Part shown: one piece after another, positions 41,644 through 63,928 of the stretch
How the letters are laid out: each line of letters begins with the position of its first letter
Numbering within the stretch: the first letter of the stretch is position 1
Assembly (NCBI GenBank): GCA_964495685.1
Contig: CAZBVQ010000001.1
Coordinates: 39,477 to 103,476 of the forward strand
DNA from: an uncultured Candidatus Saccharibacteria bacterium
Lineage (GTDB): Bacteria > Patescibacteriota > Minisyncoccia > Phycocordibacterales > PALSA-1337
Direction: 5' to 3'
Length of the DNA stretch: 64,000 nucleotides
Translations under genes and position numbers: made by a program
Notes under the pieces: generated by a model
The model's input: only the letters and a program-made list of their open reading frames with translations
Told to the model about the DNA's origin: nothing
The model's database searches: none

Positions 41644-41692
41644 TAGGTGAGGTAGACCTTTCTGGTATACACGTGCTAGTATGAGCCAATCG

Positions 41693-41765: not shown

Positions 41766-41854
41766 CTGACATTATATAACCACTAGCAATGTGCTCGCAG
41801 GTAGCGAGTTTTGAGTCGCGGGCGAATCCCGACGGCATGCTATAATTTACCGCA

Positions 41855-42298: not shown

Positions 42299-42317
42299 GT
42301 TTCTGGACATACTATAG

Positions 42318-43016: not shown

Positions 43017-43077
43017 TTTAACGGTAAAATTTCTGTTTTCCAAACAGAAGTCGCGGGTTCGACTCCCGCACCCCGCA
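43007..43077 (+). tRNA. tRNA-Gly (anticodon UCC), CCA not encoded
   Basis: Acceptor GCGGGGT/ACCCCGC, anticodon stem-loop TCTGT-TTTCCAA-ACAGA, T-arm GCGGG-TTCGACT-CCCGC. Confidence 0.8.
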
Positions 43078-43145
43078 CAACCAAGGCCGATGCGGATGGC
43101 TCAACAAGCGCGCTATTTCAGTCCGACACTCGGATCCGTCAAAAA

Positions 43146-46648: not shown

Positions 46649-46651
46649 CAA

Positions 46652-47443: not shown

Positions 47444-47611
47444 GCGTTTAGCATACAGGAAACAGTGAAATTTGTCCATCCGAACGGACAGAATTGAATG
47501 AGTGATAAATACGTGCCTATATTTAGCCATTTTCCAAGATACCACATTTACAACGCGACACAAGCATTGCGTAATATACTATAATTTTGGCATTAGTAAT
47601 TAATAAAAATT

Positions 47612-48709: not shown

Positions 48710-48726
48710 ATCGTTACTTACTTCAA

Positions 48727-48758
48727 ACAAAAATCGCTCTACAGAGAGCGATTTTTGT
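48727..48758 (+). terminator. intrinsic terminator (AAAAATCGCTCT-ACAG-AGAGCGATTTTTGTTG)
   Basis: Perfect stem with a flanking T-run after SBP paralog 2. Confidence 0.55.
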
Positions 48759-48773
48759 TGTAAACTGATACTC

Positions 48774-49640: not shown

Positions 49641-49641
49641 T

Positions 49642-50508: not shown

Positions 50509-50518
50509 AGTCTGCGGA

Positions 50519-51607
50519 TTAGATTTTGAAGTCTCCGTTTTCATACGTAGCCATCTTCCACTCAGGAACACGGAGACCCATTCCAAGCTCGTCAAAAGCT
50601 ATTGGTCCAGTTGCGCCATCTCCCTTGAACTTCTCGATATTATTTAACCAACGACTCTTGTCTGGGTTATATGTTTCAGCCATGACCAAATATGCATCGT
50701 AACCATAACCTGCAAGCTCGCTTGGGTCAGAATTGAAGCGCTTTTTATATTTGTTTGTAAAATCAGCTGATACTTCAGAGGCTGAATACATGGCAGTACT
50801 GCCGTTCAGTATGCGGTTCATAGAAGAGCCAAGGGTGGTTTGGTAATCTGTGAAGGAAAACTGAAGGTTTAAGTCGAAGTACAAATGAGGCGCATGGTAT
50901 CCGAGCTGGTCCATTCGCGTGAGAATCTGTCCTCCAACTTTTCCATCTACAAACATAACAAGTCCCTGCGAGTTTAGCTCTTTGATTTTCAGGGCTACCG
51001 GATTGAAATCTCGCTCTGTCATCGGCACGCGCACGATGGATACCGTCCCGTTAAATTTCTTTTCAAAATCTGAAAGGAACTTCTCGTAGGCTTTTATCTG
51101 TTGCATCACGACCGTCACAGTCTTAACGCCCTGCGTATTAGCAGAATCACCAAGCATGCCTACTGCGGTCTGATCGGGGAAGATCTGCACAATATTGTCC
51201 TTATCTATTTCACTTTCAGCCCCGAGTTGTAGAACTGGAATATCTTTTTTCTGAACATCCGACTTGATAACGTCGATTGTTGGAGACGAAAGATTTATCA
51301 AAGCGTCAATTTTATCGATAGACACTTCCTTTTGATATGCCGATAATCCTTTCTTAGAATCATAACCGTCATCTTCCGCTATCAGATCCATTTTTGGAGC
51401 AGAAGGATTTTTTGATTCGAATTCTTCTTTTGCAAGGATGGCACCATTCAAGAACCCCTGACCAAGGTTATCATTTCCGACTGTTAATCCAGTTAACGGT
51501 GAAATCAAACCAATACGTACGTTCTGGTGTGAAATCCTATTTTCATAAACGATAAAGATAATAACAAGCGCAATGATTGCTAAAACAGCGTACAATATTT
51601 TTTGCAT
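50519..51607 (-). CDS. ABC transporter substrate-binding protein, LivJ/Peripla_BP_6 family, paralog 3
   Basis: When started at the ATG at 51607: TM anchor MQKILYAVLAIIALVIIFIVY, then VRIGLISPLTGL. The longer upstream reading frame is probably not translated. Confidence 0.7.
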   Translation of the reverse strand: MQKILYAVLAIIALVIIFIVYENRISHQNVRIGLISPLTGLTVGNDNLGQGFLNGAILAKEEFESKNPSAPKMDLIAEDDGYDSKKGLSAYQKEVSIDKIDALINLSSPTIDVIKSDVQKKDIPVLQLGAESEIDKDNIVQIFPDQTAVGMLGDSANTQGVKTVTVVMQQIKAYEKFLSDFEKKFNGTVSIVRVPMTERDFNPVALKIKELNSQGLVMFVDGKVGGQILTRMDQLGYHAPHLYFDLNLQFSFTDYQTTLGSSMNRILNGSTAMYSASEVSADFTNKYKKRFNSDPSELAGYGYDAYLVMAETYNPDKSRWLNNIEKFKGDGATGPIAFDELGMGLRVPEWKMATYENGDFKI

Positions 51608-51757
51608 AATATGATCATAATACTGCGCGGTCACAAATGTGTCAAATAAATGAACAATCCTTGCAATAATATAACCCGACGCTAAGCCAGATTTAAGGTA
51701 ATTTGTACAATTTGTCAGAATTATTGACAAAAGCCCTATCTCTGATATGTTTGTGAC

Positions 51758-52498
51758 ATGGATCAAATCAGTAGCTCTCTGAATAATATTGGGCTTTCGG
51801 ACAAGGAGTCCAAGATATATGTCACACTTCTCAAGCTGGGGGAAGCTACTGTGGCAGAAATTTCCACGGAAGCTGGTATAAAGAGGCCAACAGCTTACAT
51901 AATTCTTGATGAATTGAGGAAAAAGGGGATAGCGCTGAAAATACCTCATCCTAAAAAGATTGTATATCAGGCAAAACCGCCTAACGAGCTTTTTGAACGC
52001 GCTAAGGAAAACTTAAACGAATTTCAGCGATTATTGCCGAAAATTAATGCCATTTCTGTCCAAAAAAAATCTATTAAGACCCTATATTTTGAAGGCTTTC
52101 AGGGTGTAAAAGATGCATTATTTTACAGAATGAACGAATTGAAAGGTGAAACTGTCTCGGGTTTTTGGGCAAAAAACAGTGGCATTGAGAAGGATGTATT
52201 TGGTCTTCTTGATAAATGGGGAAAGCAATATTTGAAAAATAATATAACTATCGCGGGTATAACTCCTGATCACGAATCAATTCGTGATCTACGATTAAAG
52301 TATCCGGAGGAATATAAGAAAATTGTGCCCGTCTCAGAAGCAGAATATTCCTCAGATATTTCCATTGATGTGGTTAAGGATTTTGTGAGGATAATTGATC
52401 CACATAGTTTGAAAGCTATAATCATAGAAAACGATCGTGTTGCGCGTGCATTAAAACAGATATTTACAATTGTTGAGAAGAAATACGGTATCTCATGA
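51758..52498 (+). CDS. TrmB-family transcriptional regulator, paralog 2
   Basis: wHTH: IGLSDKESKIYVTLLKLGEATVAEISTEAGIKRPTAYIILDELRKKGIA. Confidence 0.7.
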   Translation: MDQISSSLNNIGLSDKESKIYVTLLKLGEATVAEISTEAGIKRPTAYIILDELRKKGIALKIPHPKKIVYQAKPPNELFERAKENLNEFQRLLPKINAISVQKKSIKTLYFEGFQGVKDALFYRMNELKGETVSGFWAKNSGIEKDVFGLLDKWGKQYLKNNITIAGITPDHESIRDLRLKYPEEYKKIVPVSEAEYSSDISIDVVKDFVRIIDPHSLKAIIIENDRVARALKQIFTIVEKKYGIS

Positions 52499-52562
52499 GT
52501 ATTTTCAGTACCATTTACTTATAGTTTACTTTGATGCTAGGCTATTTTCGGCTGAAAGGATT

Positions 52563-52796
52563 ATGAATATGAGTGAAACTGATTATAAAGCTCTATATGA
52601 GCAGGAGAAACATCTCCGAGAGGAGGCTGAACGTAAGTTCAACGAATTAAAGGAGCGCGTTAGGCCTTTAATCGAGTCGATCGATAAGATGTCAGAACCG
52701 GCTCGCCGGATCGAGGAAGTGATGCAAGAATTCGCTAAGCTTCAAAAAGCCGAATCCCAGTATCATTCCGGTCCGGAGGATCCGGCCGGTGACTAG
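52563..52796 (+). CDS. small hypothetical coiled-coil protein
   Basis: 77-aa charged helical ORF from the internal ATG. Ends at the shared terminator element. Confidence 0.25.
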   Translation: MNMSETDYKALYEQEKHLREEAERKFNELKERVRPLIESIDKMSEPARRIEEVMQEFAKLQKAESQYHSGPEDPAGD

Positions 52797-52815
52797 GCTC
52801 TGATAAGTAGAATTC

Positions 52816-52850
52816 AAAAGGCTCGGTTCAATCCCGGGCCTTTGTCATTT
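52816..52850. terminator. 35-nt bidirectional terminator element, copy 1 (AAAAGGCTCGGTTCAATCCCGGGCCTTTGTCATTT)
   Basis: 10-bp GC-rich stem with an A-run and a T-run. Overlaps the 3' end of TrmB paralog 3. Identical copy at 55299-55333. Confidence 0.6.
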
Positions 52851-53619
52851 TTGAAATACTAGATAACTGGTGTGCCAAGTCTTTGTTCTTCCACATAAAG
52901 TTAAATATTTCTCGAATGGTCTTTGCCAGATCGGCGTTCTCGATAATCACCATCTGATTGTTTCGGTTAAGAACAAGACGGACAATATTTGAGAAAGTGT
53001 CGATTGAAACAGCTGACGAATATATCGAATATGGAAGAATGTGAGTTATTCGCTTCTGAGACGTATCCGTTTTTCTGAAACTCACAAGAGATGGATGGTC
53101 GGGCACAAAAGCTCTAAGTGTTATGTTGTTATTTGCGGTAAATTCATTATATTCCTCACAAATTTGAAGCAGTTTCGCTGACATATCTTTCGCTTCTGCA
53201 TAAAAACCGACTATTTCCTTTCCAAATGCTTCCTCGATTCGATAATGCAAGGCCTCTTTGAATGCTTTTAAGCCTTCGAAATGCATCACATTCATTTTCT
53301 CAGGCGTTTTTATACTCCCGATGGATTTGAGTGACGGCAGAAGCTTCTTCGCTTCATCCATGCGATGCTCGGCATCCTGAAAAAGTATCTCTGGGGCAAC
53401 TGGTTTGTATATCCGTTTTGAAGCACGAGGAATTCTGTGCGCTGCACCTTTCTCGATGAGCTCGTCCAAGATCACATATGTCGTCGGTTTCTTCAGTCCA
53501 GATTGCTCAGATATGGCATAAGCTGAACCCTTTCCTAGTTTTAGGAGCGCTAAATACACTTGTGCCTGCTTGTCAGTGAATCCTATGTTGGTTAGCCCAG
53601 AAACTAATGTTGTATCCAT
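52828..53619 (-). CDS. TrmB-family transcriptional regulator, paralog 3
   Basis: wHTH: IGFTDKQAQVYLALLKLGKGSAYAISEQSGLKKPTTYVILDELIEKGA. Confidence 0.7.
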   Translation of the reverse strand: MDTTLVSGLTNIGFTDKQAQVYLALLKLGKGSAYAISEQSGLKKPTTYVILDELIEKGAAHRIPRASKRIYKPVAPEILFQDAEHRMDEAKKLLPSLKSIGSIKTPEKMNVMHFEGLKAFKEALHYRIEEAFGKEIVGFYAEAKDMSAKLLQICEEYNEFTANNNITLRAFVPDHPSLVSFRKTDTSQKRITHILPYSIYSSAVSIDTFSNIVRLVLNRNNQMVIIENADLAKTIREIFNFMWKNKDLAHQLSSISKMTKARD

Positions 53620-53820
53620 GCTTGCATACTACGCGGCAGTCCAAATATAGTCAATAATTTTGATGACATTAAATGGACAAAATCATTTGTACATTGAAAA
53701 ACATAGGTATATTAACGAATTTTAATGTTCAAAATTTATAATACAGATTTGCCGTTCGTAAAAAATCAAGTTATGCTTATTACCATTACTTTTTATAGAG
53801 TCCCAAAAGGGATCATTATT

Positions 53821-54909
53821 ATGAATAAAAAATATACATGGGCAATAATCATCGTGGTCATTATTGCAATAATCGGTGTCTACTTGCTTGGCACCAAGAA
53901 TCACACACAGACTAAAGGTTTCAATGTGGGGCTTATTAGCATTCTTTCGGGCGAATATGCCGCTGTCGGCGAAAACTTTAGAAATGGCGCGGTACTCGCG
54001 GAAGAACAATACAACGCCGCCCATCCGGACGCGCCTATCAAAATGACTATTGAAGATGATGGTTTTTCTGGTGGAAAAGCAGTGAGCGCGTACCAGAAAT
54101 TAGTTAACGTCGATAAGATCGATGCTCTCATTAATGTTTCAACCGCTTCAATCGATGCTATATATGATTCTGTGACGAAACTCGGGATTCCTGTCGCTCA
54201 AGGCGGTGAACAAGGCCGTGTGCCCACTGATGATAATGTCTTTGGAATATATCCTGACAGTATCGCTTCAGAAAGAGACTACGGAGTCTATATGCGTAAC
54301 AAAGGAATAACTCAAATGACTTTGGTCTATACGAAAATAGATGCCATGATCCGTTTTGTGGATGCATTTAAGGAAGGATTTCAGGGCAAGACGACTGATA
54401 TCGTCATAGATTCTGCCGAAACTGATTTTCGAACCCATGCTCTTAAGGCCACATCAGGCAATCCGAACGCTATTGGCATATTTATGTTTCCACAACAAGG
54501 TGCTCAGTTCATGAAAGAGTATCTTAGGCTCGCTAAAAACAAGCCGACGATCTTCTTCGATACGAATTTTGTCTCCGGTTATACAGACTATCAGCGAATC
54601 ATGGGAGATCTTACGGTTCTTGATGGCAGTATTGTTGGCGGAATGAAGCTTGAAGATACACAGGCTTTCAAGGATGCTTACAAGGCACGGTATGGCACGG
54701 ATGCCCCATTCTTGTCAGATATTGGTTACGATTCGTTCAATCTTCTCGTGAAGACATATTCACCAGATAAGGCGACGTGGGTTGCTAACATGAAGAATGC
54801 TGATTTTCAGGGGGTTAGTGGTGAAATAAAGTTTGGCCCTACGGGAAATCGATTGCCCGAAACTAAGATGATGATCATTCAGGGAGGGAGGATGGTGGAT
54901 TTGAAGTAA
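53821..54909 (+). CDS. ABC transporter substrate-binding protein, LivJ/Peripla_BP_6 family, paralog 4
   Basis: From the ATG at 53821: TM anchor MNKKYTWAIIIVVIIAIIGVYLL, then FNVGLISILSGEYAAVGE. Confidence 0.75.
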   Translation: MNKKYTWAIIIVVIIAIIGVYLLGTKNHTQTKGFNVGLISILSGEYAAVGENFRNGAVLAEEQYNAAHPDAPIKMTIEDDGFSGGKAVSAYQKLVNVDKIDALINVSTASIDAIYDSVTKLGIPVAQGGEQGRVPTDDNVFGIYPDSIASERDYGVYMRNKGITQMTLVYTKIDAMIRFVDAFKEGFQGKTTDIVIDSAETDFRTHALKATSGNPNAIGIFMFPQQGAQFMKEYLRLAKNKPTIFFDTNFVSGYTDYQRIMGDLTVLDGSIVGGMKLEDTQAFKDAYKARYGTDAPFLSDIGYDSFNLLVKTYSPDKATWVANMKNADFQGVSGEIKFGPTGNRLPETKMMIIQGGRMVDLK

Positions 54910-54972
54910 TCAAATTACGACACAACTACTTGACTTTAGCAAGTAGAGCTGCTATACTACTGGCAGCTCTTT

Positions 54973-55296
54973 ATGAATACAACCATGCTCCTTTGGCTCA
55001 TTGTAGCCGTTCTTATCATGTGGGGTGGCCGCTGGGTCTGGATCGCTTTCAGACTTTGGTGGATTACGTCCAAAGGCGGAGAAATGCAGTATAGGTTCAA
55101 GCTGACGCGGATTCACTATGTGATCGCGTTTCAGTCTTGGCTCTATATCAGGCGTCTCCGATTTGGTTCCTTCTGCCACAAGATTCGACTGTGGTGGTGG
55201 GAGTACTGGATCACTCGTGGATTCAAGGTGAAATACCCCTCGTACAATCCGCCAGCCAGTCCGCACGCCAAGCACCTCGAGAAGGATATTCGCTAA
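54973..55296 (+). CDS. possible small Trp-rich membrane protein (GC-rich ORF)
   Basis: One clear TM helix. Conflicts with the antisense ORF 54952..55314; local GC content is higher than the flanks. Confidence 0.2.
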   Translation: MNTTMLLWLIVAVLIMWGGRWVWIAFRLWWITSKGGEMQYRFKLTRIHYVIAFQSWLYIRRLRFGSFCHKIRLWWWEYWITRGFKVKYPSYNPPASPHAKHLEKDIR

Positions 55297-55298
55297 CA

Positions 55299-55333
55299 AA
55301 AAGGCTCGGTTCAATCCCGGGCCTTTGTCATTT
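55299..55333. terminator. 35-nt bidirectional terminator element, copy 2
   Basis: Identical to 52816-52850. Overlaps the 3' end of TrmB paralog 4 in a different reading frame. Confidence 0.6.
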
Positions 55334-56164
55334 CTTGAGATTTACTTTTTCAATCAGATTTCTCATCATAAGGTTGTGGTCGATCTTTTTGCTTCCTTGC
55401 TTTACGTATTCAAACATCTCGCGTAAGAGATCAGTCGTTCGTTTGTTTGTAATCTCTATTGCAATCTTCTCGTACCAGTTAATGATCATGCTTGTTTTCT
55501 TGAAGATCCAAATTTCCGCACTCATGTCGAAGCGATTATCAGGAAAAACAGAATAGTCTGACATTCTACCCTCGAGACTTTTGACCTGTTCGAGGTGATT
55601 CTTCGGATCCGTGATTATTTCCTTGTAGTAGGAATCATAGGCTCCTTCGTTCAATATTCCATCAATGATTATCTTGTTTTTGATCACCGCCTGGTTAAAT
55701 TCAATGAGTTGTTTCTTGGTGGTCACGCGGAGCAGTTCATTAAATGATTCGTGGTGTTGGATTGCTTTTACACGATCTCCCCTTACCTCTGTTGCAATGC
55801 GACTGAAAGCGGGGATGATTTCTTTTGGCCCCACATGGATGATGAACTCATCCTCTTTGGATGTTTTTACGCGAACACCTTTTCTTTCAAGATTTTCGAG
55901 TTGTAGGCGGTCGATTATTCTTTGCAGATTCTTTGAGAGTTCCGTTGTGGATATAGCTCTGTATATAAAGCGCTTTCCAACTCGTTCTTGTTGCACAAGT
56001 CCACGTTTAACAAGATTCTTAAGATTATAGGAAACACTTGTCCTTAAAATCTTTGAATCAGCCGCTATATTCTGAAGACTCTTAGGTGATTCAAGCGTAA
56101 AAAGGATCGTTTTTTCAATGGGGCTTAACCCTAAGAGGCTGGCCGAATTAAGGCTCAAATTCAT
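55328..56164 (-). CDS. TrmB-family transcriptional regulator, paralog 4
   Basis: wHTH: LGLSPIEKTILFTLESPKSLQNIAADSKILRTSVSYNLKNLVKRGLV. Confidence 0.65.
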   Translation of the reverse strand: MNLSLNSASLLGLSPIEKTILFTLESPKSLQNIAADSKILRTSVSYNLKNLVKRGLVQQERVGKRFIYRAISTTELSKNLQRIIDRLQLENLERKGVRVKTSKEDEFIIHVGPKEIIPAFSRIATEVRGDRVKAIQHHESFNELLRVTTKKQLIEFNQAVIKNKIIIDGILNEGAYDSYYKEIITDPKNHLEQVKSLEGRMSDYSVFPDNRFDMSAEIWIFKKTSMIINWYEKIAIEITNKRTTDLLREMFEYVKQGSKKIDHNLMMRNLIEKVNLKK

Positions 56165-56316
56165 GCATCAAGTATAAATTGGACAAAAAATTTGTCAATT
56201 AGTTTTGTATTTTACGTTGTGAATCAAAGGCAAATAGGGAACACACTATTTTTCTATGCACTCTGTTGACATATTGATATAATGCATGGGTAATTATTAT
56301 TAATTTTATATTTACC

Positions 56317-57423
56317 ATGAATAAGAAAACAATATGGCTCATAGGAAGCGCAATTGTCATTATCGTCGCGATCGTGCTAGTACGCGGTTTTAGCGGAAAT
56401 GATTCAAGTTCCATTAAATTGGGACTCATGCTGCCTTTAACTGGCGACTACGCTGCAGCTGGCCAAAATATGCAAAAAGGCATGACTGTAGCTCTTGAAC
56501 AGTATGAAAAGGATCATCCGAATGTGCATGTCACCACAGTCGTCGAGGATGATGCATATGATGCTACAAAGGGTGTAACTGCTTATAAAAAGTTAGTCGA
56601 TCTGGACAAAGTCGATGCAATTCTTATGTTATCGACACCGGTCATTGATGCAATCCATGAAGACGTCGTGAAAAGGGGCATTCCGGTCATTCAGCTCGGC
56701 GTTCAAACAGTCGGTGTTGGGGATGATAATATCATCCAGTTCAGTCCGGCGGCTGACGCGCCAATTGGATTTCTAGCGAAGTATTTGGCGAACTCATCAG
56801 GATTTTATTCCAAGAAAGTGGCAGTGATCTACGATAATTCCGCAGCGCAATTGAGCTTCTACAAGATCTTCGAGCAGAATTATACACACGAATTCACGCC
56901 TCTAATTGTGAACGGAAAGGATGTGTTTCGAAGTTATGCCACCAAGATTGCTAACGAAGGCTACGGTGCCGTCGTGGTTATCGAATCGCCACAGAACGGT
57001 GCGCTGTTCACAAAAGAATTACTAACGGTGGACAAGACCTTGCCGACGATTGCCTACGATGCACAGCTTCAAACTGGATTTGCAGACTATGGCCGCATAC
57101 TTGGTGATACTAACAAGATAAACGGAGCAATATCTATGTGGTTCAAGTCAGGAAAGATGGACGAGCTCACCAAATTGTATCAAGCCAAATACGGAGAAAC
57201 TCCCGGCTTTTTGGTAGACTTCTCGTACGACATGATTAATACAGCATTGGCTACCTATGACAAAGACCAGGCAAAGTGGGTAAGTAACCTCAAGAAGTAT
57301 CAAGATCCAAATGGCGCTTCCGGATCAATATCATTTGATAGCAATGGCGTGCGATTACAGCCCATGGTGATCACGCAAGTGCAGAGTGGAAAGCTTGTAC
57401 CAGTAGATGATGTGAAACTGTAA
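56317..57423 (+). CDS. ABC transporter substrate-binding protein, LivJ/Peripla_BP_6 family, paralog 5
   Basis: TM anchor plus IKLGLMLPLTGDYAAAGQ. Confidence 0.8.
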   Translation: MNKKTIWLIGSAIVIIVAIVLVRGFSGNDSSSIKLGLMLPLTGDYAAAGQNMQKGMTVALEQYEKDHPNVHVTTVVEDDAYDATKGVTAYKKLVDLDKVDAILMLSTPVIDAIHEDVVKRGIPVIQLGVQTVGVGDDNIIQFSPAADAPIGFLAKYLANSSGFYSKKVAVIYDNSAAQLSFYKIFEQNYTHEFTPLIVNGKDVFRSYATKIANEGYGAVVVIESPQNGALFTKELLTVDKTLPTIAYDAQLQTGFADYGRILGDTNKINGAISMWFKSGKMDELTKLYQAKYGETPGFLVDFSYDMINTALATYDKDQAKWVSNLKKYQDPNGASGSISFDSNGVRLQPMVITQVQSGKLVPVDDVKL

Positions 57424-57540
57424 TTCGGATTTGATTCTCAAGAAAATACCGTGCCTTGTGGGTACGGTATTTTCATTGTAAGATGAATATCATAATGGTG
57501 TAACACTGGGTTAAATTAACAATTTCTTAAATATAACTTC

Positions 57541-58614
57541 ATGAATTCATCTACAAAATGGTATTGGATAGTAGGAATATTAGTAGTAATTATTGCCATA
57601 CTCGCAATTGTTATCCCGAAAAATAAAACAACAAGCGAGTCTTCAAATTATGTTGTTGGAGCTATTTTGCCCATGACTGGTCCAGCCGCTCTATGGGGAG
57701 AGACTTTTAAAAATGGTATGGAATTAGCATTAAGAAATCATCCTGAATTGCAGGTTATTTTTCAGGATAGTAAATCGACGGCACAAGATGGCATCTCCGC
57801 ATTTAATGTCTTAAAAGATAGAGATGTTAATCTGATGGTATCTGAATTGTCTCTTGTCTCGGTCCCACTAGCCAAGGTAGCTCTGGATCAAAAGGTTCCA
57901 CTATTTGTTTCTCTTGTGGCTACGAATCATCAGAATATTGTGAATGATTTTACAACAAGATACTACACCGATCCGACCAATTATGCTCTACCTGCATTTA
58001 CAGATCCAATTTCTCCTCTAATAAGCGCAAAGAAAATAGCTTTGCTGTACAGGAATGATGAATTAGGAGTATCAGTCAAAGACAAGATCAATGAACTCAG
58101 TAAGAATAATGATAAACAAATCGTTGCTCAGGAATCGTTTATGCCTAATGAAAAGGACTACAGAACTGTTTTGACGAAAATAAAGAATTCAGATTTACAG
58201 GTGTTCATCTTTGTGGTTGCGAATCCGATTGAAGCTACTGGTATTGTCAAAACAGCGAGCGAATTGGGTTTGAAAATACCCATGATAGAATCGTCTGCAG
58301 TTTTTGCTGACCTCGATACCCGCAAGCAGGTTCAAGGAATACCGTTTTATTCTTCCTCATACGACTTTTCCTTGCCTGATAAGGCGATTGAGTTCAAAAA
58401 GCAATATTCTGAGAAATTTGGTAAGGAGCCAAACTTTAGTTCAGCCTTTGGTTACGATATCGTGAATCTTATTGGAGCATGTGTAAAAAAGAACGTAGAC
58501 ATAAAAGCATGTTTATCAACAGTTAACGAATTTGATGGTGTAGCGGGAGTTGCTACACAAACTGCACCAAGTGATTTTGTCGTAAAACTGCATCTGGAAA
58601 AAGTAAATTTTTGA
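57541..58614 (+). CDS. ABC transporter substrate-binding protein, LivJ/Peripla_BP_6 family, paralog 6 (most divergent)
   Basis: TM anchor plus YVVGAILPMTGPAALWGE. Lower-GC, AT-rich codon usage. Confidence 0.7.
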   Translation: MNSSTKWYWIVGILVVIIAILAIVIPKNKTTSESSNYVVGAILPMTGPAALWGETFKNGMELALRNHPELQVIFQDSKSTAQDGISAFNVLKDRDVNLMVSELSLVSVPLAKVALDQKVPLFVSLVATNHQNIVNDFTTRYYTDPTNYALPAFTDPISPLISAKKIALLYRNDELGVSVKDKINELSKNNDKQIVAQESFMPNEKDYRTVLTKIKNSDLQVFIFVVANPIEATGIVKTASELGLKIPMIESSAVFADLDTRKQVQGIPFYSSSYDFSLPDKAIEFKKQYSEKFGKEPNFSSAFGYDIVNLIGACVKKNVDIKACLSTVNEFDGVAGVATQTAPSDFVVKLHLEKVNF

Positions 58615-58681
58615 ATTCAGTATAAACTCATTACAAAAGCAGCCGCCAGATTTATCTGACGGCTGTTTGCGTAAGATTGCC

Positions 58682-59449
58682 CTAGCTCGAAGTCGTATTG
58701 GGTACGACCCCGATTAGATGAAGTGCTGCCGCTAACTTTACTGATCGGTCGCTATCGCTGCGGCAGCCCATGAGACTAAAGAACTTTTCGGGGTCGATGC
58801 CTTTCTGTGCCAACCCCTTTTCGAGGGGGCGTGTTTTTCTTTCGAAATACGCTTGGTGCATCGCATTCTCTCCCGAGAAACTGATCAGCTTTTCGACGAT
58901 ACGAATGTCCTGATCATTGCCCAGCTGCTTATACAGCTTCTGAAGATGTGACTTCAGCGAAGGGAGTCGTGTCTGTACCATCTTGAGTACATAGTAATTT
59001 GTGATGGCTTCATTCAAGATCTCGCGATCTACGAATCTGCCAACGACATTACCGTTCTCGAGTCTGGCAGCCGCTGTTGCGATGCCAGTCTCGATAATCA
59101 AGATGCCGTTTTTGCCATCGTCAGGTTCCTTGATGACCTTCGTATGAGAGATGGCATGTGTGACTTCGTGAGCGAGTGTCCAGAGTGTTGCCATAAAAGA
59201 GTCACCTGGTTTATGGAACTGTTCCGCGATCAGGGAGATGACGCCTGCGAAACGGGGAGTGAGGAGGATGCAGCGATTCAATGGGTCGTAAGCTGCCTCG
59301 AGCTCGCCTTCCTGTTCTGAGGCAGTCAGTGCATACTCTACCGTCTTTGCACCAATGGAATGAATCCTATGGGCATAGTCGGAGAACGCTTCCTTCACAT
59401 GCAGAATTACTTCCCGCATGAAAGTGCTGATTTTTTCTTGGTCTGTCAT
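58682..59449 (-). CDS. hypothetical HExxH-motif protein (putative zinc metallopeptidase)
   Basis: HEVTH motif inside a predicted helical region. GC content clearly higher than neighbours. Confidence 0.45.
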   Translation of the reverse strand: MTDQEKISTFMREVILHVKEAFSDYAHRIHSIGAKTVEYALTASEQEGELEAAYDPLNRCILLTPRFAGVISLIAEQFHKPGDSFMATLWTLAHEVTHAISHTKVIKEPDDGKNGILIIETGIATAAARLENGNVVGRFVDREILNEAITNYYVLKMVQTRLPSLKSHLQKLYKQLGNDQDIRIVEKLISFSGENAMHQAYFERKTRPLEKGLAQKGIDPEKFFSLMGCRSDSDRSVKLAAALHLIGVVPNTTSS

Positions 59450-59556
59450 AAGTCGGTATTTGGTTGATCGAATTTCAAAGTACTACCTATATTATATCAC
59501 AAATCCTTGACAAATACAAGGGTAGATGCTAAAATATGGCTAAAGCACATTGATTT

Positions 59557-60357
59557 ATGAACATTAACGTTTACGCTCACAAATCGGGGCCATTGAGCAG
59601 GGCCTTTTTACAGGTTGTCGGCCTTACCGACCACAAGCTGGTTGAAGTTGCCGATCAAAAGGCGGCTGACGTCATCTTGCTCACGGGGTCGGAAGATCTC
59701 CGCGCCCTCTACAACGACAAACAACTGTTCTGTGTTCTTCAGACGGAGCGGCGTCCGCTCACGGCGAAGCAACCCGAGAACGTTTGCCTGTTGGACACAC
59801 TGAAGCTCATGGAGGGTGACAGTGGTATCCCGAAGCTTCTTGAGATGATCGACAAGCGCATCGCAGATCAGGCCAAGAAGCCGGCGACTGAAGAGGCACT
59901 TCCGACATTTTCGGATCTTGTCAAATTCAAGAGCCACTACTCGGTTTTGGTCATCGACGATACGGAGAGAAATCTCCGAATCGCCGAGGCTGTCCTCAAG
60001 GGACACTCGGTTACGATCGCAAGTGGTCTGCAGGAGGCGATGAAAGCTGTGGGTCAGAAGCATTTCGACGTGGTCCTTACGGACATGGAGATGCGACCGG
60101 ACAAACAGTACTCAGCGCTGAACCTCGATCACTACGGTGTCACTGAAACCGTGCCACTCGGGTTCGCAGTCGTCCTCGAGATGACTGAACGTGGCATGCC
60201 GGTAGCCGTCGTTACAGATGGCAACCATCACGCCGGGTGGGTGTCGGCAATGTTCGATCACATCCAACGAGCCAATGTTAACGGGCAGAAAGTTCTGTTC
60301 TTTAATAACATCGGCAAGCGGTGGGATACGGCGCTCAAGAGCCTGATGGAGCCTTAG
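59557..60357 (+). CDS. receiver (REC) domain protein with unknown N-terminal domain
   Basis: The C-terminal half has a CheY-like pattern: VLVIDD...DVVLTDMEMRP (phospho-acceptor Asp) ...K. GC-rich relative to flanks. Confidence 0.55.
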   Translation: MNINVYAHKSGPLSRAFLQVVGLTDHKLVEVADQKAADVILLTGSEDLRALYNDKQLFCVLQTERRPLTAKQPENVCLLDTLKLMEGDSGIPKLLEMIDKRIADQAKKPATEEALPTFSDLVKFKSHYSVLVIDDTERNLRIAEAVLKGHSVTIASGLQEAMKAVGQKHFDVVLTDMEMRPDKQYSALNLDHYGVTETVPLGFAVVLEMTERGMPVAVVTDGNHHAGWVSAMFDHIQRANVNGQKVLFFNNIGKRWDTALKSLMEP

Positions 60358-60415
60358 CTCCTCAATTTCTTGAGACACGCACGCAGTTTGCTTCGGCTAG
60401 CTGCGTGTTTTTGCT

Positions 60416-61537
60416 TTATATTTGTGAAGCCTTTCCGCTCTGAATGACGAACAATGAGTATCGGGCATTTGTTCGATCATTTTTCTGATCGAAGCTGATG
60501 TTGCCACTTACACCATCGTAGTTGGCTTGAGCGAGGTAGTTTTTTACTCCCGAAGCTGTTTGATTTGTCTTAAGAGCATTAGCTAACAACTGGATGGCAT
60601 CGTATTCGGCTGCACAGATGTTTATCTGAGGGCAATCTGTTCCATATTTCGATTTGTATTCAGCGAGTATCTTATTGAACTCTGGAGTTGCTTGGAATAC
60701 GTAGTCGCCTCCCACAGCACCTTCAAGTAAGGCCGAGTGCTTTGTGAGTAGCGCTGAAGCCTTGAGAATATTGTCATTTATGAACATATGCTTCGGTTTG
60801 AACCCGAGTTGTTCCATTTGGGTAAGAACTGTTTCACCACTCGGCACAGTTTGAACGCTTACAAAAACGACATCGGGATTTGTGGCTTGCAGTTTGGTGA
60901 GTTGAGTTCTGACATCTGTAGCTCCGGAAGCGAATGATTCGCTTGTGACGGTTATATCTGTATTAGCGAGATCTTTTGTGAGAGAGATTTGAAGTCCTTT
61001 TGCATAATCCGTTTCTTCATAGATCACTGCAATCTTTTTGTATCCTTGTGCAATTGCGCGATCAGCCAAAAGTTTCGCCTCTTGTCCGTCTGATGCCCAG
61101 TTTCTGAAGAAGTTGGGTGAAATTGCTGTGAGTTTGTCAGCGCTTGTCACTGTTCCGAGCAAGACTGCATCGTTCTGAGCTAAGTTAGGTGCCATAGCGG
61201 CGACTGTTCCGCTGCATGCAACAGTTGTAAGTACATGGATTCCATCAGTACTGACCAATTTTTGGAAAGCTGATGCGGCTGTCTTTGGATCACATTTATG
61301 ATCTTCAGATACCAGCTCGAGTTTCTTGCCGTTAATTCCGCCTGCAGCATTTATATCGTCGACGGCGATAATAGCAGTATTATGAGCAGGCTCGCCATAG
61401 GAAGCGAGGCCTCCAGTAAGAGGGTACATGCCACCGATCTTGATCGTGTCGCTCTGCTTCGAGAATTGAGCAGCTACTATTACAAGAACTATTACTACGA
61501 TTACTAAAATGGCCCCGAGGGTGTATTTATTTTTCAT
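60416..61537 (-). CDS. ABC transporter substrate-binding protein, LivJ/Peripla_BP_6 family, paralog 7
   Basis: TM anchor plus IKIGGMYPLTGGLASYGE. Confidence 0.8.
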   Translation of the reverse strand: MKNKYTLGAILVIVVIVLVIVAAQFSKQSDTIKIGGMYPLTGGLASYGEPAHNTAIIAVDDINAAGGINGKKLELVSEDHKCDPKTAASAFQKLVSTDGIHVLTTVACSGTVAAMAPNLAQNDAVLLGTVTSADKLTAISPNFFRNWASDGQEAKLLADRAIAQGYKKIAVIYEETDYAKGLQISLTKDLANTDITVTSESFASGATDVRTQLTKLQATNPDVVFVSVQTVPSGETVLTQMEQLGFKPKHMFINDNILKASALLTKHSALLEGAVGGDYVFQATPEFNKILAEYKSKYGTDCPQINICAAEYDAIQLLANALKTNQTASGVKNYLAQANYDGVSGNISFDQKNDRTNARYSLFVIQSGKASQI

Positions 61538-61676
61538 GTTATTAATGAATTAATTCTATACCATATATTTTACGCTCATTCAATAGTTTGTCAAATGTGT
61601 TGACGAATGTTAAGAAAAGAACTATAATAGCTATATAAATTGGCATAATATTGTTGTCGAGAAATAGGACAAAATC

Positions 61677-62420
61677 ATGAAAACAGTCGAATTTGCAGAA
61701 ATATTGAAGGATTTCGGGCTCGATATTAACGAGTCGAAAGTCTATATTGCCATGCTTTCTCTTGGTCCGTCCAAGGTTTTACGTATTGCCAAAGAAGCAG
61801 AAATCAAAAGAACTAGTGTTTATGCCGTGATCGAAGGTCTTCGACAGAAAGGTCTTGTAGAAATTCAGGTGAAAGGACTGAAAAAACTATATGCAGCAGC
61901 TAGTCCCGAGCAACTTGAAAGCATGATAGAACTCAAAAGACAGAAGTTCCGTGATATTTTACCGGAACTAAAAGCATTGGATACATTTAAAGGAAAAGAG
62001 AGCTTTATTAAATATTATGAGGGGCTCAATGGTGTTAAATCTGTTTACGATAGAATTCTGGACGATTTGAAACCAGGCGATGATTACATGATTGTTTCCA
62101 ATATGGAGCAATTCCTTGATATGGATCGAGAATATTTTGCGGATTTCATAAAACGCCGTGCCGCATACAACTTGAAGGTGAGGACTCTCATTCTTGATTC
62201 ACCTAGTGCGCGTCACTATAAGGAGCATGAGAAGAGTACAAATCAATCGATTAAATTTTTACCAAGTGACACGAAATTGAGCGCCAATTTAGTGATAACA
62301 ACGCACCGTGTGGTCATTACTCAGACTGTTAAGCCGATCATGTCCATTGTGATAGAGAATAAAAATATAGTTGAGATCCAAAAGGAGCAATTTGATATAG
62401 TGTGGGACTCGATAAAGTAA
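61677..62420 (+). CDS. TrmB-family transcriptional regulator, paralog 5
   Basis: wHTH: FGLDINESKVYIAMLSLGPSKVLRIAKEAEIKRTSVYAVIEGLRQKGLVE. Confidence 0.7.
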   Translation: MKTVEFAEILKDFGLDINESKVYIAMLSLGPSKVLRIAKEAEIKRTSVYAVIEGLRQKGLVEIQVKGLKKLYAAASPEQLESMIELKRQKFRDILPELKALDTFKGKESFIKYYEGLNGVKSVYDRILDDLKPGDDYMIVSNMEQFLDMDREYFADFIKRRAAYNLKVRTLILDSPSARHYKEHEKSTNQSIKFLPSDTKLSANLVITTHRVVITQTVKPIMSIVIENKNIVEIQKEQFDIVWDSIK

Positions 62421-62439
62421 GCTTTCTTAAACGGCGAAA

Positions 62440-63207
62440 TTGAGGCATAATTTACTTATGCTTCAGCTTTCGACTAAATCCATTGTTAAACACTTCGATG
62501 GTGTTTATGCTGTCAATAAGCTCTCGCTCAATTTTGAGTCTGGAAAAATAACTGGAATCATCGGTCCAAACGGATCAGGCAAATCCACGCTCGTAAATTT
62601 GCTCACCGGCCTCATTCCGTTCGACAAAGGTGAGGTTTTAGTAAGTGGCGAGACTTTAACCAAAGTTCATCCTCACCAAGTACCGTTTTATGGCGTTACG
62701 CGCACGTTTCAGGATGTGAGATTATTCGAGCAGATGCCCGTTATCGATAATATTCTTGTCGTTCTAACACAACGAAGCATTTGGTCATCTTTGTTTGAAA
62801 GACACAATAAGTTTCACATAGAAAAAGCGGAAGCAGTGCTCAAAAAAGTGGGTCTATGGGAAAAACGTAACGAACTTGCCAAGAACTTGTCTTACGGTCA
62901 ACGCAAACTATTAGAAATCGCTCGCGTCTGTGCCATGAGTCATAGTGGAACAGCTGATTTGGAAGTTATTTTATTCGATGAACCTTTCGCTGGTCTATTT
63001 CCAGAAATGATCAAGATAGTTTCATCCGTAATGCAGGAATTACGATCGCAAGGTAAGGCAGTTATCCTCATAGAACATAATATGGAGCTGATCCGAGGCC
63101 TTTCTGATTATCTCTATGTTCTGGATTCGGGGGAACTTTTGGCTGAAGGGAAGCCTGACGAGGTATTAGCTAGAAAAGATGTAATTGAAGCGTATTTGGG
63201 AGAATAA
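62440..63207 (+). CDS. livG: branched-chain amino acid ABC transporter ATP-binding protein, LivG type
   Basis: Walker A GPNGSGKST, ABC signature LSYGQRKLLEIAR, Walker B ILFDEP. Confidence 0.85.
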   Translation: MRHNLLMLQLSTKSIVKHFDGVYAVNKLSLNFESGKITGIIGPNGSGKSTLVNLLTGLIPFDKGEVLVSGETLTKVHPHQVPFYGVTRTFQDVRLFEQMPVIDNILVVLTQRSIWSSLFERHNKFHIEKAEAVLKKVGLWEKRNELAKNLSYGQRKLLEIARVCAMSHSGTADLEVILFDEPFAGLFPEMIKIVSSVMQELRSQGKAVILIEHNMELIRGLSDYLYVLDSGELLAEGKPDEVLARKDVIEAYLGE

Positions 63208-63208
63208 T

Positions 63209-63928
63209 ATGAAGGAAATTTTATTAAAACTTGAGGACATTCATGTTCACTACGGAGGAGTGAAAGCTCTTGATGGTGCTTCTGTGGCCGTAGATGAAGG
63301 AGAGATTGTCGCTCTCATGGGTCCTAACGGTGCTGGTAAATCGACGATTCTCAAAACGATATTTGGCCTAGCGGCCTTCGAATCTGGCAAGGTCTATTGG
63401 GAAGGACAGGCGTTTACTCCTGTTTCCCACGAAGTAGTGAAGCGAGGTATTTCATTTGTGCCACAAGGACGCAGGGTTTTTAGGCATCTAACCGTCTTGG
63501 AAAATCTTGAGATTGGAGGATTCGGTCTGTCACGAAATGAACGAGAGGAAAGGATAAACAACGTACTCGAGCTATTTCCTGCGTTAAAAGGCAAATTAAA
63601 GGCAAAATCAGGCACGTTATCGGGTGGTCAGCAGCAGATGTTAGCTATTGCCAGAGGCCTCATGACTGATCCGAAGGTTCTACTTTTGGATGAACCGTCA
63701 CTAGGCTTGGCTCCTAAGATCGTTAAGGAAGTTTTTGCCAAGATTAAAGAAATAAATGAGCGACGCAGGACGGCAGTTATAGTTGTTGAGCATAATATAA
63801 AATCACTGGTTGAGATCTCGAATCGAGTGTACGTACTTGATAAGGGGAAGATAGTTGCGCATGGCGATCCTAAGACCTTGATTTCCTCTGAAATCATGGA
63901 AAAAGTATTTCTAGGTAAGCTCTCTTAG
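63209..63928 (+). CDS. livF: branched-chain amino acid ABC transporter ATP-binding protein, LivF type
   Basis: Walker A GPNGAGKST, signature LSGGQQQMLAIAR, Walker B LLLDEP. Start set at the ATG at 63209 right after the livG stop. Confidence 0.85.
   Translation: MKEILLKLEDIHVHYGGVKALDGASVAVDEGEIVALMGPNGAGKSTILKTIFGLAAFESGKVYWEGQAFTPVSHEVVKRGISFVPQGRRVFRHLTVLENLEIGGFGLSRNEREERINNVLELFPALKGKLKAKSGTLSGGQQQMLAIARGLMTDPKVLLLDEPSLGLAPKIVKEVFAKIKEINERRRTAVIVVEHNIKSLVEISNRVYVLDKGKIVAHGDPKTLISSEIMEKVFLGKLS

What the first reader, a model, noticed from the sequence alone, without database searches (positions are those of the whole stretch)
58682..60357. GC-rich two-gene insertion inside the array: HExxH protein plus an orphan receiver-domain protein
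Both genes have visibly higher GC and a different codon style from the surrounding AT-rich binding-protein genes.

The 266-aa protein has a canonical CheY-like receiver signature (VLVIDD...DVVLTDMEMRP) at its C-terminus but no output domain, and no histidine kinase is nearby. The 255-aa neighbour has a single HEVTH motif.

An orphan receiver protein embedded among ligand-binding proteins and TrmB regulators hints at a signalling link, or at recent horizontal acquisition.
Basis: partly seen in the sequence, partly recalled or inferred. Interest (0 to 1): 0.5.

Follow-up and report, generated by a model that had tools for sequence, protein, structure and literature searches.

The report
Orphan receiver gene plus separate metallopeptidase gene
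Two unrelated single genes, an orphan signalling "receiver" protein and a small zinc peptidase, sit back to back in a transporter gene array of a tiny Patescibacteria genome; they are not one imported block, but both have unusually GC-rich coding sequences predicted to fold tightly as RNA, which is unexplained.

Summary
Both ORFs, the HEVTH motif and the VLVIDD…DVVLTDMEMRP motifs are at the stated coordinates. Both genes are GC-rich against the surrounding array (GC 0.497 and 0.542 versus 0.418±0.023; z = 3.4 and 5.3).

The reading as one recently imported two-gene insertion is not supported.
- A close relative (L008) has the receiver gene at the same site without the HExxH gene. The difference is an ~816-bp single-gene indel.
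- Both genes use synonymous codons like the window's own core genes. The AT-rich array is the outlier.
- The receiver gene is a GC spike in almost every host of its Patescibacteria-wide family, despite saturated synonymous divergence.

The 266-aa protein has a family-specific N-terminal α/β domain and a divergent but complete receiver domain, with all five phosphorylation residues conserved. It has its own promoter and terminator. No histidine kinase was detected in the window or near 11 other family members.

The 255-aa protein belongs to a rare, undescribed family with a gluzincin zinc-peptidase fold (HExxH plus Glu147).

Unexpectedly, these two genes have the strongest predicted excess of mRNA folding among 50 window ORFs. 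All 11 receiver-family genes tested show the same excess. The cause is unknown.

The parts
58640..58665 (.). G+C-rich hairpin between the convergent binding-protein gene (57541-58614, +) and gene A (-). It probably acts as a terminator in both directions.
   Evidence: The terminator scan lists it on the - strand. It is conserved in L008, which lacks gene A. A similar hairpin follows the gene A homologue in L004.
58670..59485 (.). ~816-bp segment present in the window and absent in relative L008, where 12 unrelated bases take its place. It holds gene A plus about 36 bp upstream and about 12 bp downstream.
   Evidence: Pairwise alignment of the window with L008, with the boundaries refined by eye. 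No terminal direct or inverted repeats were found.
58682..59449 (-). Gene A: a 255-aa soluble protein with a gluzincin zinc-metallopeptidase fold. HEVTH is encoded at 59156-59170 and the proposed third zinc ligand Glu147 at 59009-59011.
   Evidence: - No Pfam, NCBIfam, PHROG or PADLOC family matches.
- The family is rare: 17 representative clusters among 1.84 billion.
- The AlphaFold model has pLDDT 93.2 and pTM 0.91.
- HExxH and the NE motif are kept together in 12 of 15 members and lost together in the other 3.
59491..59499 (-). Candidate extended -10 promoter element (TGATATAAT on the - strand) for gene A.
   Evidence: Read by eye; the promoter scan did not list it. Equivalent TGnTATAAT elements are present in L008 and L091. 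It could instead be an A+T-rich upstream element of the receiver-gene promoter.
59507..59535 (+). Promoter of the receiver gene: TTGACA, 17 nt, TAAAAT, with TG before the second hexamer.
   Evidence: Promoter scan, 11 of 12 matches. It is conserved in L008 and L091.
59557..59871 (+). Receiver-family protein, N-terminal domain (aa 1-105). It is a small α/β domain specific to this family, with conserved A37, D38, P73 and N75.
   Evidence: - Secondary structure and confidence come from the AlphaFold model.
- Conservation is shown.
- A family profile finds no solved structure and no Pfam family.
- No similarity to the protein's own receiver domain was detected.
59938..60354 (+). Receiver-family protein, C-terminal receiver domain (aa 128-266).
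- Residues and codons: D134/D135 (59956-59961), phospho-acceptor D176 (60082-60084), T220 (60214-60216), K254 (60316-60318).
- It has an insert of about 20 aa after β3.
- It has a family-specific motif TDGNHH…SAxFD in the β4-α4 segment.
60379..60414 (+). Terminator hairpin of the receiver gene (CACGCAGTTTGC-TTCG-GCTAGCTGCGTG followed by TTTTTG), shared with the convergent binding-protein gene 60416-61537 (-).
   Evidence: Sequence; inverted repeat I5. It is conserved in L008 and L091, and homology with L091 ends just after it.

Best explanation
The region holds two independent, monocistronic genes that lie back to back in a spacer of a binding-protein / TrmB / Liv-type ABC transporter array. 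The genome is a Patescibacteria (Parcubacteria-like) genome.

**Gene B** belongs to a Patescibacteria-wide family of 255-285-aa proteins.
- Its N-terminal ~105-aa α/β domain is specific to the family.
- Its C-terminal domain is a divergent but complete receiver domain.
- My inference is that Asp176 is phosphorylated by an unlinked kinase or by a small-molecule donor such as acetyl phosphate. The signal would then pass on through protein-protein contacts that involve the N-terminal domain and the unusual β4-α4 surface (TDGNHH…SAxFD). It would not act through DNA binding.
- It is transcribed from its own strong promoter and ends at its own terminator.

**Gene A** is a soluble zinc metallopeptidase of a rare, undescribed gluzincin-fold family.
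- The proposed zinc ligands are His94, His98 and Glu147, with Glu95 as the catalytic base.
- A plausible role is cleaving cytoplasmic peptides.
- It is present or absent as a single-gene indel between close relatives.

**Composition.** The GC contrast is real but is not the mark of a recent two-gene import.
- The array is AT-rich relative to the rest of the genome.
- High GC3 is a long-maintained property of the receiver family.
- High predicted mRNA folding is also a long-maintained property of that family, and to a lesser degree of gene A.

**Shown:** the folds, the conserved residues, the synteny, the indel, the composition, and the absence of a detectable nearby kinase.
**Inferred:** phosphorylation, the partner proteins, the peptidase substrate, and the reason for the composition.
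For: Independence of the two genes:
- L008/L009 carry the order PBP368-PBP357-receiver-PBP381 with no gene A.
- The alignment shows homology through the PBP357 terminator, an ~816-bp gap, then homology again from the receiver promoter.
- No other receiver-family context contains a gene A relative.
- Gene A homologues occur without the receiver gene (L004-L007 and L015).

Native rather than foreign composition:
- The per-codon synonymous-codon log-likelihood ratio (core versus array usage) is 0.087 for gene A and 0.085 for gene B.
- Core genes average 0.085 and array genes -0.092±0.049.

Family-wide GC of the receiver gene:
- In 14 distinct members with flanking sequence, the gene's GC is 0.46-0.58 while the locus GC is 0.35-0.55.
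- It has the highest GC3 of the locus in 11 of the 14.
- In L018 its GC is 0.54 among housekeeping genes of GC 0.28-0.42.
- Synonymous sites have turned over. Window versus L008 gives dS 0.97, against 0.61-0.77 for three neighbouring genes and saturation for two others. More distant pairs are saturated.

Receiver domain:
- D134, D135, D176, T220 and K254 are invariant or at least 90% conserved in 108 sequences.
- The model has pLDDT 93.4.

Self-contained unit: the promoter and terminator were found. Homology among the window, L008 and L091 covers only promoter, ORF and terminator.

No kinase detected:
- None appeared in the Pfam scans of 19 window ORFs, including the unidentified ones, or in a motif scan of all ORFs; the remaining ORFs were judged by eye.
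- None of the 12 annotated family contexts (±6-10 kb) has HisKA or HATPase_c.

Gene A.
Against: - The closest non-identical receiver homologue (L091, 87% identity) lies in an unrelated context next to a DDE transposase. The unit therefore does move, and horizontal exchange among Patescibacteria is not excluded.
- The gene A homologue in L004 sits beside an IS30-like transposase.
- The receiver protein diverges faster than most of its neighbours between the window and L008 (dN 0.086 versus 0.026-0.043 for four of them). This would also fit replacement by recombination.
- The Pfam match of the single sequence is below threshold and covers half of the domain.
- Phosphorylation, zinc binding and proteolysis are untested.
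- The whole genome was not searched for kinases.
- The direction of the gene A indel (gain in the window lineage or loss in L008) is unresolved.
Confidence: 0.72

Rival explanations
1. One reading: the two genes form one GC-rich island recently acquired by horizontal transfer into the array.
For: - Both genes stand out locally in GC and GC3 (z = 3.2-5.3).
- Both stand out in predicted mRNA folding: they are the two most negative of 50 ORFs.
- Relatives of each gene are found next to transposases in other genomes.
- Gene A has a patchy distribution.
Against: - L008 has the receiver gene alone at the same site.
- The spacer between the two genes is AT-rich (GC 0.32), and each gene has its own transcription signals.
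- No repeats, integrase or tRNA flank the pair.
- Codon use equals that of the window's core genes.
- Receiver GC3 of 0.64-0.70 is kept in four syntenic genomes at dS about 1-1.5.
- Neither family occurs on IMG/VR viral contigs.
Confidence: 0.07
2. The receiver protein is functionally wired to the array. It would relay a signal that controls the TrmB regulators, the binding proteins or the Liv-type ABC transporter around it.
For: - The gene is embedded in binding-protein/TrmB/Liv arrays in the window, L008, L010 and L012.
- The 45%-identical member L017 is embedded in such an array too.
- That makes 5 of 11 contexts.
- Such arrays are unusual for Patescibacteria, which a survey reports to have few ABC transporter proteins (PMC7137472).
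Against: - Six of 11 contexts have no such array.
- Four of the five positive cases are close relatives, so there are about two independent observations.
- The gene is monocistronic.
- The order of genes around it is fluid.
Confidence: 0.25
3. The C-terminal domain is a pseudo-receiver, or an enzyme built on the receiver fold, and is not phosphorylated by a kinase. The conserved Asp, His-His and Asp residues would bind a metal or a ligand.
For: - No kinase is found near any member.
- Patescibacteria are reported to have few two-component genes (PMC7137472).
- The second half of the domain is invisible to Pfam and to the PDB profile search.
- D221, H224, H225, S230, A231, F233 and D234 are invariant or nearly so, next to the active site.
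- There is an insert of about 20 aa after β3.
Against: - All five residues needed for phosphoryl chemistry are conserved across members only about 30% identical.
- From my own knowledge, this is not usual for pseudo-receivers.
Confidence: 0.2
4. The high GC3 results from GC-biased gene conversion in a gene that recombines often between Patescibacteria, not from selection.
For: - The unit moves: L091 has it in a different context at 87% identity.
- It has a higher dN than most of its neighbours.
- A link between recombination and GC3 in bacteria has been reported (PMC4450053; I saw only its title and abstract).
Against: - This does not explain the excess of predicted RNA folding over shuffles that keep codon or dinucleotide content.
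Confidence: 0.2

Closest known systems
Stand-alone CheY-like receiver proteins (CheY, DivK, CpdR)
   Same: The (βα)5 receiver fold, the acidic pair, the phospho-acceptor Asp, and the Thr and Lys residues. There is no DNA-binding or enzymatic output domain, so any output would go through protein contacts.
   Different: - An extra conserved N-terminal ~105-aa α/β domain.
- An insert of about 20 aa after β3.
- An invariant TDGNHH…SAxFD segment.
- Only the first half of the domain is recognisable by sequence.
- No chemotaxis or kinase genes nearby.
Receiver domains of hybrid histidine kinases (RcsC, RpfC, fungal and plant hybrid kinases)
   Same: These are the best sequence matches of the family profile (E = 1e-9 to 1e-7) and the best NCBIfam partial matches (TorS, ArcB, RcsC, BarA).
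   Different: There is no kinase, HPt or sensor part, and only β1-β3 align.
Proteins with a non-receiver N-terminal domain followed by a C-terminal receiver (PhyR, CheV); comparison from my own knowledge
   Same: The domain order, and the idea that phosphorylation changes how the receiver holds or releases the N-terminal domain.
   Different: The N-terminal domain here matches no known domain. It is neither sigma-like nor CheW-like.
Gluzincin metallopeptidases: M1 aminopeptidase catalytic domain, thermolysin (M4), minigluzincins
   Different: - No sequence-level match to any family.
- No GxMEN motif.
- 48 residues lie between the second His and the Glu, forming a four-strand β insert. From my own knowledge this spacing is 18 in M1 and 19 in thermolysin.
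- The protein is a stand-alone 255-aa chain.
Horizontally acquired genomic islands
   Same: Local compositional contrast; presence/absence of gene A between relatives; transposases next to homologues elsewhere.
   Different: - No integrase, tRNA or repeat boundaries at the pair.
- The two genes are inherited separately.
- The composition matches the host core.
- The GC signature persists over saturated synonymous divergence.

Membership tests
Response regulator receiver domain (Pfam PF00072, CheY-like) | (βα)5 flavodoxin-like fold | tested here: met
Response regulator receiver domain (Pfam PF00072, CheY-like) | Acidic pair after β1 and phospho-acceptor Asp after β3 | tested here: met
   D134 and D135 are at least 90% conserved and D176 is invariant in 108 sequences. 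They align to the DD and D of solved receivers.
Response regulator receiver domain (Pfam PF00072, CheY-like) | Thr/Ser after β4 and Lys in the β5-α5 loop | tested here: met
   T220 is at least 90% conserved and K254 is invariant. Their positions were assigned from the model's secondary structure, not from a residue-level superposition.
Response regulator receiver domain (Pfam PF00072, CheY-like) | Score above Pfam's gathering threshold | tested here: not met
   28.2 bits against a cut-off of 30.2, covering profile positions 1-52 of 111 only. About 40% of the listed homologues carry a precomputed PF00072 hit.
Response regulator receiver domain (Pfam PF00072, CheY-like) | Phosphorylation of the conserved Asp | not testable with these tools
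   Requires biochemistry.
Classical two-component system (linked histidine kinase and response regulator) | Cognate histidine kinase encoded next to the regulator | tested here: not met
   - No HisKA or HATPase_c appeared in the Pfam scans of 19 window ORFs or in the motif scan of all ORFs; the remaining ORFs were judged by eye.
- None lies within ±6-10 kb of the 12 annotated family contexts.
- The rest of the genome was not searched.
Gluzincin metallopeptidases (clan MA(E)) | HExxH on the active-site helix, in a thermolysin-like fold | tested here: met
Gluzincin metallopeptidases (clan MA(E)) | Glu on the following helix as third zinc ligand | tested here: inconclusive
   E147 lies in LNEAITN at the start of helix 143-161. 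It is kept in the 12 members that keep HExxH and lost in the 3 that lost it.
Peptidase family M1 | GxMEN exopeptidase motif and HExxH-X18-E spacing (features from my own knowledge) | tested here: not met
   There is no GxMEN in the sequence, the spacing is 48 residues, and no Pfam or NCBIfam hit was found.
Horizontally acquired genomic island (the two genes as one unit) | Joint presence/absence, mobility genes or repeat/tRNA boundaries, and composition foreign to the host | tested here: not met
   - L008 has the receiver gene without gene A.
- No flanking repeats.
- The nearest tRNA is 15 kb away.
- Codon use equals that of the host core.

The most novel reading that the evidence does not exclude
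The receiver family, gene A and some other uncharacterised Patescibacteria genes may form a class whose coding sequences are kept GC-rich and unusually self-complementary whatever the host's base composition.

- This would come from selection on the nucleic acid itself, for example for long-lived or slowly translated mRNAs, or for a property that helps single-gene units spread between these naturally competent cells.
- The amino-acid sequence alone would not explain it.
- Individual minimum-energy folds share few pairs between orthologues (7-24% among the seven closest, lower still for the two most distant). This would mean selection for 'structuredness' rather than for one conserved fold.
Probability: 0.3. 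Interest if true: 0.65.

Novelty: new variant of a known kind. Interest (0 to 1): 0.42.

Why it matters
Patescibacteria have tiny genomes and, by published counts, very few signalling genes. A receiver protein conserved across the group, with an unknown partner domain and no linked kinase, is therefore a candidate for one of their few regulatory switches. It is also a clean target for phosphorylation and partner-finding experiments.

The small peptidase adds an undescribed branch to the gluzincin fold.

The finding is also a caution for genome scanning. A sharp, gene-sized GC spike here is not a sign of recent import. It is a trait the gene family keeps in hosts from 35% to 55% GC.

If the accompanying excess of predicted mRNA folding is real, it points to selection acting on the nucleic acid of particular genes in these reduced genomes.

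Tried and rejected
- **N-terminal domain as a degenerate copy of the receiver.** hhalign of the N-terminal against the C-terminal profile gave nothing (E = 0.097 over 8 columns).
- **N-terminal domain against known families.** A profile search found no solved structure at E ≤ 10. Pfam gave no recurrent hit.
- **Gene A against sequence libraries.** Nothing in Pfam, NCBIfam, PHROGs, PADLOC or PDB sequences.
- **Phage origin.** Neither family is on IMG/VR viral contigs. Gene A has no significant structural match in BFVD.
- **A conserved antisense gene inside the receiver gene.** The antisense ORF is long in some homologues (167-236 aa) but short in L008, L014 and L017. It is a by-product of avoiding A-ending codons.
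- **Conserved synonymous sites.** Not seen: dS is as high as, or higher than, that of unsaturated neighbours.
- **One long inverted repeat as the source of the folding excess.** Not found; there are many moderate helices instead.
- **Known RNA family.** Rfam finds only four tRNAs in the window and nothing credible in 58500-60500.
- **Transposon-like ends around gene A.** None.
- **Neighbouring ORFs elsewhere.** The 312-aa ORF next to the receiver gene in L010 is not a gene A relative. The GC-rich 279-aa ORF near the gene A homologue in L015 is not a receiver-family member.
- **Searches that failed technically.** The genome-contig scan with the 15-sequence alignment failed because it had no conserved stretch. 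The afdb50 fold library was unavailable.
- **Conserved RNA fold.** RNAalifold on nine receiver genes gives 26 of 138 pairs with changes on both sides, against 12.4±2.5 in shuffles and 8-12 in slid controls. The structure was derived from the same sequences and the alignment is coding, so I treat this as inconclusive.
Full report
**1. What is at the coordinates**

- The ORF at 58682-59449 (-) encodes 255 aa; I call it gene A. The ORF at 59557-60357 (+) encodes 266 aa; I call it gene B.
- They are divergently oriented and separated by a 107-bp spacer.
- On the left is a Peripla_BP_6 binding-protein gene (57541-58614, +), which converges on gene A. On the right is another (60416-61537, -), which converges on gene B.
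- TrmB-family regulators and more binding-protein genes lie further out.
- Gene A has one HExxH motif (HEVTH, aa 94-98). Gene B has VLVIDD at aa 130-135 and DVVLTDMEMRP at aa 171-181.

**2. Composition, measured**

| Gene set | GC | GC3 |
|---|---|---|
| Gene A | 0.497 | 0.570 |
| Gene B | 0.542 | 0.674 (highest in the window) |
| 20 array genes, 41-64 kb | 0.418±0.023 | 0.415±0.048 |
| 30 genes, first 41 kb | 0.482±0.025 | 0.515±0.060 |

- The window is not uniform: its first 41 kb is clearly GC-richer than the array.
- Against the array, the two genes are strong outliers (GC3 z = 3.2 and 5.3). Against the first 41 kb, gene A is ordinary and gene B only moderately high (z = 2.6).
- I computed a per-codon log-likelihood ratio of synonymous codon use, core versus array. 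It puts both genes at the core mean: 0.087 and 0.085, against 0.085 for core genes and -0.092±0.049 for array genes.
It is the array that departs from the rest of the sequence.
- The spacer between the two genes has GC 0.32, so these are two gene-sized blocks.

**3. The two genes are not one unit**

- The gene B protein has at least 168 relatives, all 225-306 aa apart from one 152-aa fragment. Where they are named, they come from Patescibacteria or Candidatus Taylorbacteria.
- Gene A has only two relatives in the word-indexed search of 5.8 billion proteins. An exhaustive profile search of 1.84 billion representatives finds 17 clusters.
- Relative L008/L009 has a receiver protein 85% identical and flanking binding proteins 92% and 79% identical by global alignment. 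Its gene order is PBP368, PBP357, receiver, PBP381, TrmB, with no gene A.
- The DNA alignment is clean:
  - Homology runs through the PBP357 stop codon and its terminator hairpin.
  - Then about 816 bp of the window (58670-59485) stand against 12 unrelated bases in L008.
  - Homology resumes about 20 bases before the receiver gene's -35 hexamer.
- The segment holds gene A with about 36 bp upstream and about 12 bp downstream. It has no terminal repeats.
- No other receiver-family locus holds a gene A relative. Gene A relatives in L004-L007 and in L015 (a Candidatus Parcubacteria genome) have no receiver gene beside them.

**4. Gain or loss of gene A?** This is unresolved; I lean slightly towards loss in L008.

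- In L004/L005, the 51%-identical gene A homologue converges on the orthologue of the window's PBP373 (55-57% identical). So the gene may have been in this neighbourhood for a long time.
- L008 keeps the hairpin that would terminate gene A. It also keeps a TGnTATAAT element on the minus strand where gene A's promoter would be.
- Both elements have other possible uses, as the PBP357 terminator and as an upstream element of the receiver promoter.
- L010 and L012 also lack gene A next to the receiver gene.

**5. The receiver-family protein**

- An alignment of 108 family members shows that D134, D135, D176, T220 and K254 are invariant or at least 90% conserved. These are the five residues of receiver phosphoryl chemistry.
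- The same alignment shows family-specific invariant or near-invariant residues D221, H224, H225, S230, A231, F233, D234 and W256.
- The AlphaFold model is confident (pLDDT 93.4, pTM 0.87). It shows a small α/β domain (aa 1-105), a linker, and a (βα)5 domain at aa 129-264. That domain has an insert of about 20 residues after β3 and a short α4.
- By sequence, only β1-β3 are recognisable. Pfam gives 28.2 bits, below the 30.2 cut-off. The family profile matches solved receivers, best those of hybrid kinases, over positions 119-188 only.
- The N-terminal domain has its own conserved positions (A37, D38, P73, N75). It matches nothing in PDB sequences or Pfam, and it is not detectably related to the receiver half.
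- 'Receiver' is therefore right. 'No output domain' needs the qualifier that a conserved domain of unknown function precedes it.

**6. Transcription unit and mobility**

- The gene has a near-consensus promoter (TTGACA, 17 nt, TAAAAT, 59507-59535). It has a hairpin terminator at 60379-60414.
- The closest non-identical homologue (L091, 87%) lies in an unrelated context. Its neighbours are a 538-aa unknown protein, a DDE transposase, and His_Phos_1 and HAD genes.
- The three-way alignment shows homology only from just upstream of the -35 hexamer to the terminator.
- So promoter, ORF and terminator behave as a unit of about 0.9 kb that can change place.

**7. Kinase and context**

- No HisKA, HATPase_c or HPt protein was detected in the window. 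Pfam scans covered 19 window ORFs, including the ten I could not identify by eye. A motif scan covered every ORF of at least 120 aa. The remaining ORFs were judged by eye.
- None is found in the 8 kb beyond the window's end. None lies within 6-10 kb of any of the 12 annotated family contexts.
- Five of eleven distinct contexts are binding-protein/TrmB/Liv arrays, including a member only 45% identical (L017). The other six are unrelated (same calls).
- A survey reports about five two-component genes and few ABC transporter proteins per Patescibacteria genome (PMC7137472).

**8. Gene A**

- The model is confident (pLDDT 93.2, pTM 0.91).
- HEVTH lies on helix 83-100. A four-strand β insert follows, and helix 143-161 starts with LNEAITN.
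- In the 15-member alignment, 12 members keep both HExxH and the Glu of the NE motif. Three have lost both. This supports Glu147 as the third zinc ligand.
- By eye, there is no signal peptide or membrane segment.
- There is no GxMEN motif, and the spacing from the second His to the Glu is 48 residues. The protein is therefore not a member of M1 or M4.

**9. The GC signature belongs to the family**

- I examined 14 distinct family members with flanking sequence. The receiver gene's GC is 0.46-0.58 and its GC3 0.49-0.73, while the locus GC runs from 0.35 to 0.55.
- It is the top-GC3 ORF of its locus in 11 of the 14.
- The most extreme case is L018, from the 30%-identity subfamily. There the gene has GC 0.52-0.56 inside a run of housekeeping genes (dnaG, rpoD, pyrG, recR, dnaB) at 0.28-0.42.
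- Between the window and L008, synonymous divergence of the receiver gene (dS 0.97) is at least as high as that of three neighbours (0.61-0.77); two other neighbours are saturated. More distant pairs are saturated too.
- The synonymous sites have therefore turned over, yet the composition has stayed the same.
- This argues against a recent import into this genome. It argues for a maintained equilibrium, whether by selection, by biased gene conversion, or by repeated exchange.

**10. An unexpected second signature**

- I compared each gene's minimum folding energy with shuffles that keep the amino-acid sequence and the codon counts.
  - All 11 receiver-family genes fold more stably than expected (z from -2.1 to -8.7).
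  - Dinucleotide-preserving shuffles agree: z = -8.7 for L018 and -4.0 for the window.
- Among 50 window ORFs, gene B (z = -4.2) and gene A (z = -3.9) are the two most negative. The other 48 average -0.13±1.21, with a minimum of -2.6. The two genes also have the lowest energy per base.
- Within their own loci, the L018, L023 and L017 members are the most negative ORFs (-11.3, -5.8 and -2.3).
- GC3-rich housekeeping genes score near zero. Several other uncharacterised GC-rich ORFs in these loci are also strongly negative.
- Minimum-energy structures of orthologues share few pairs: 21-24% for the closest, at most 15% for the rest.
- A consensus fold shows more double-sided changes than the controls. 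However, it was derived from the same coding alignment, so this is inconclusive.
- No Rfam family matches.
- I have no tested explanation.

**11. Verdict**

- The interpretation as a two-gene horizontal insertion is not supported.
- The receiver identification is supported, with corrections.
- The link to the array remains a weak possibility.
- The proteins are new variants of known kinds: a receiver domain with an unknown partner domain, and an unassigned gluzincin.
- The maintained GC-rich, highly foldable coding sequence is the part that deserves follow-up.

Noticed in passing
window 41000-64000 (continues beyond the window; L001 1-7000): - The whole right-hand part of the window is about 6 GC points lower than the first 41 kb.
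- It starts in a cluster of four tRNA genes (40582-43078).
- It carries a large serine recombinase (44031-45386) and a resolvase-type HTH protein (42318-43016).
- It is followed by an MmeI-like restriction-modification gene.
- The array itself, rather than the two genes, may be the island-like element.
   Followed up: partly
window 45536-63928: - This stretch holds seven paralogous Peripla_BP_6 binding-protein genes.
- It also holds four TrmB-type regulators by the ORFs I used (the database gene calls list five), one LivH/LivM-like permease pair and one LivG/LivF-like ATPase pair.
- That is a large investment for a Patescibacteria genome, reported to have about 3±3 ABC transporter proteins (PMC7137472).
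- The order of the binding-protein genes differs among relatives L008, L010, L012 and L017.
   Followed up: partly
L091 3356-4291; L004 67-1047: - A DDE_Tnp_1 transposase lies directly downstream of the 87%-identical receiver gene in L091.
- An IS30-like transposase (PHROG 4646, E = 6e-52) lies directly upstream of the gene A homologue in L004.
- In L004 the adjacent binding-protein gene is split into two ORFs (189 and 204 aa), although it is intact in L005.
   Followed up: partly
L014 2152-3027 and 3175-4149; L013 4731-5930 and 9145-10674; L091 653-2269; L015 7564-8403; L023 2826-3356: Other Patescibacteria ORFs, all but one uncharacterised (L014 2152-3027 has an EamA hit), are GC-rich. They fold far more stably than synonymous shuffles (z from -2.8 to -5.2), like the receiver family and gene A. 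Housekeeping genes do not.
   Followed up: partly
window 11443-23264: - This is a cluster of large secreted or membrane proteins with no Pfam family.
- It also holds a T4SS_pilin protein (12762-14087) and, by eye, a VirB4-like ATPase (15642-17456).
- It looks like a type IV secretion or conjugation-like apparatus.
   Followed up: no
window 54910-55327: A 418-bp gap lies between a binding-protein gene and a TrmB gene. It has GC about 0.50 and overlapping ORFs on both strands (120 and 107 aa), but the database gene calls place no gene there. It may be a gene remnant or an RNA.
   Followed up: no
L015 9359-10435: A reverse-transcriptase gene (RVT_1, E = 1e-25) lies 2.6 kb from the gene A homologue in the Candidatus Parcubacteria genome. 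A GrpB gene lies between them; a GrpB-like ORF (identified by eye) is also present in the window at 43146-43670.
   Followed up: no
window 59449 versus 59419: The database gene call for gene A (P0121, 245 aa) starts at Met11. The 51%-identical homologue aligns from Met1 with conserved residues in the first ten positions, which supports the longer 255-aa reading.
   Followed up: yes
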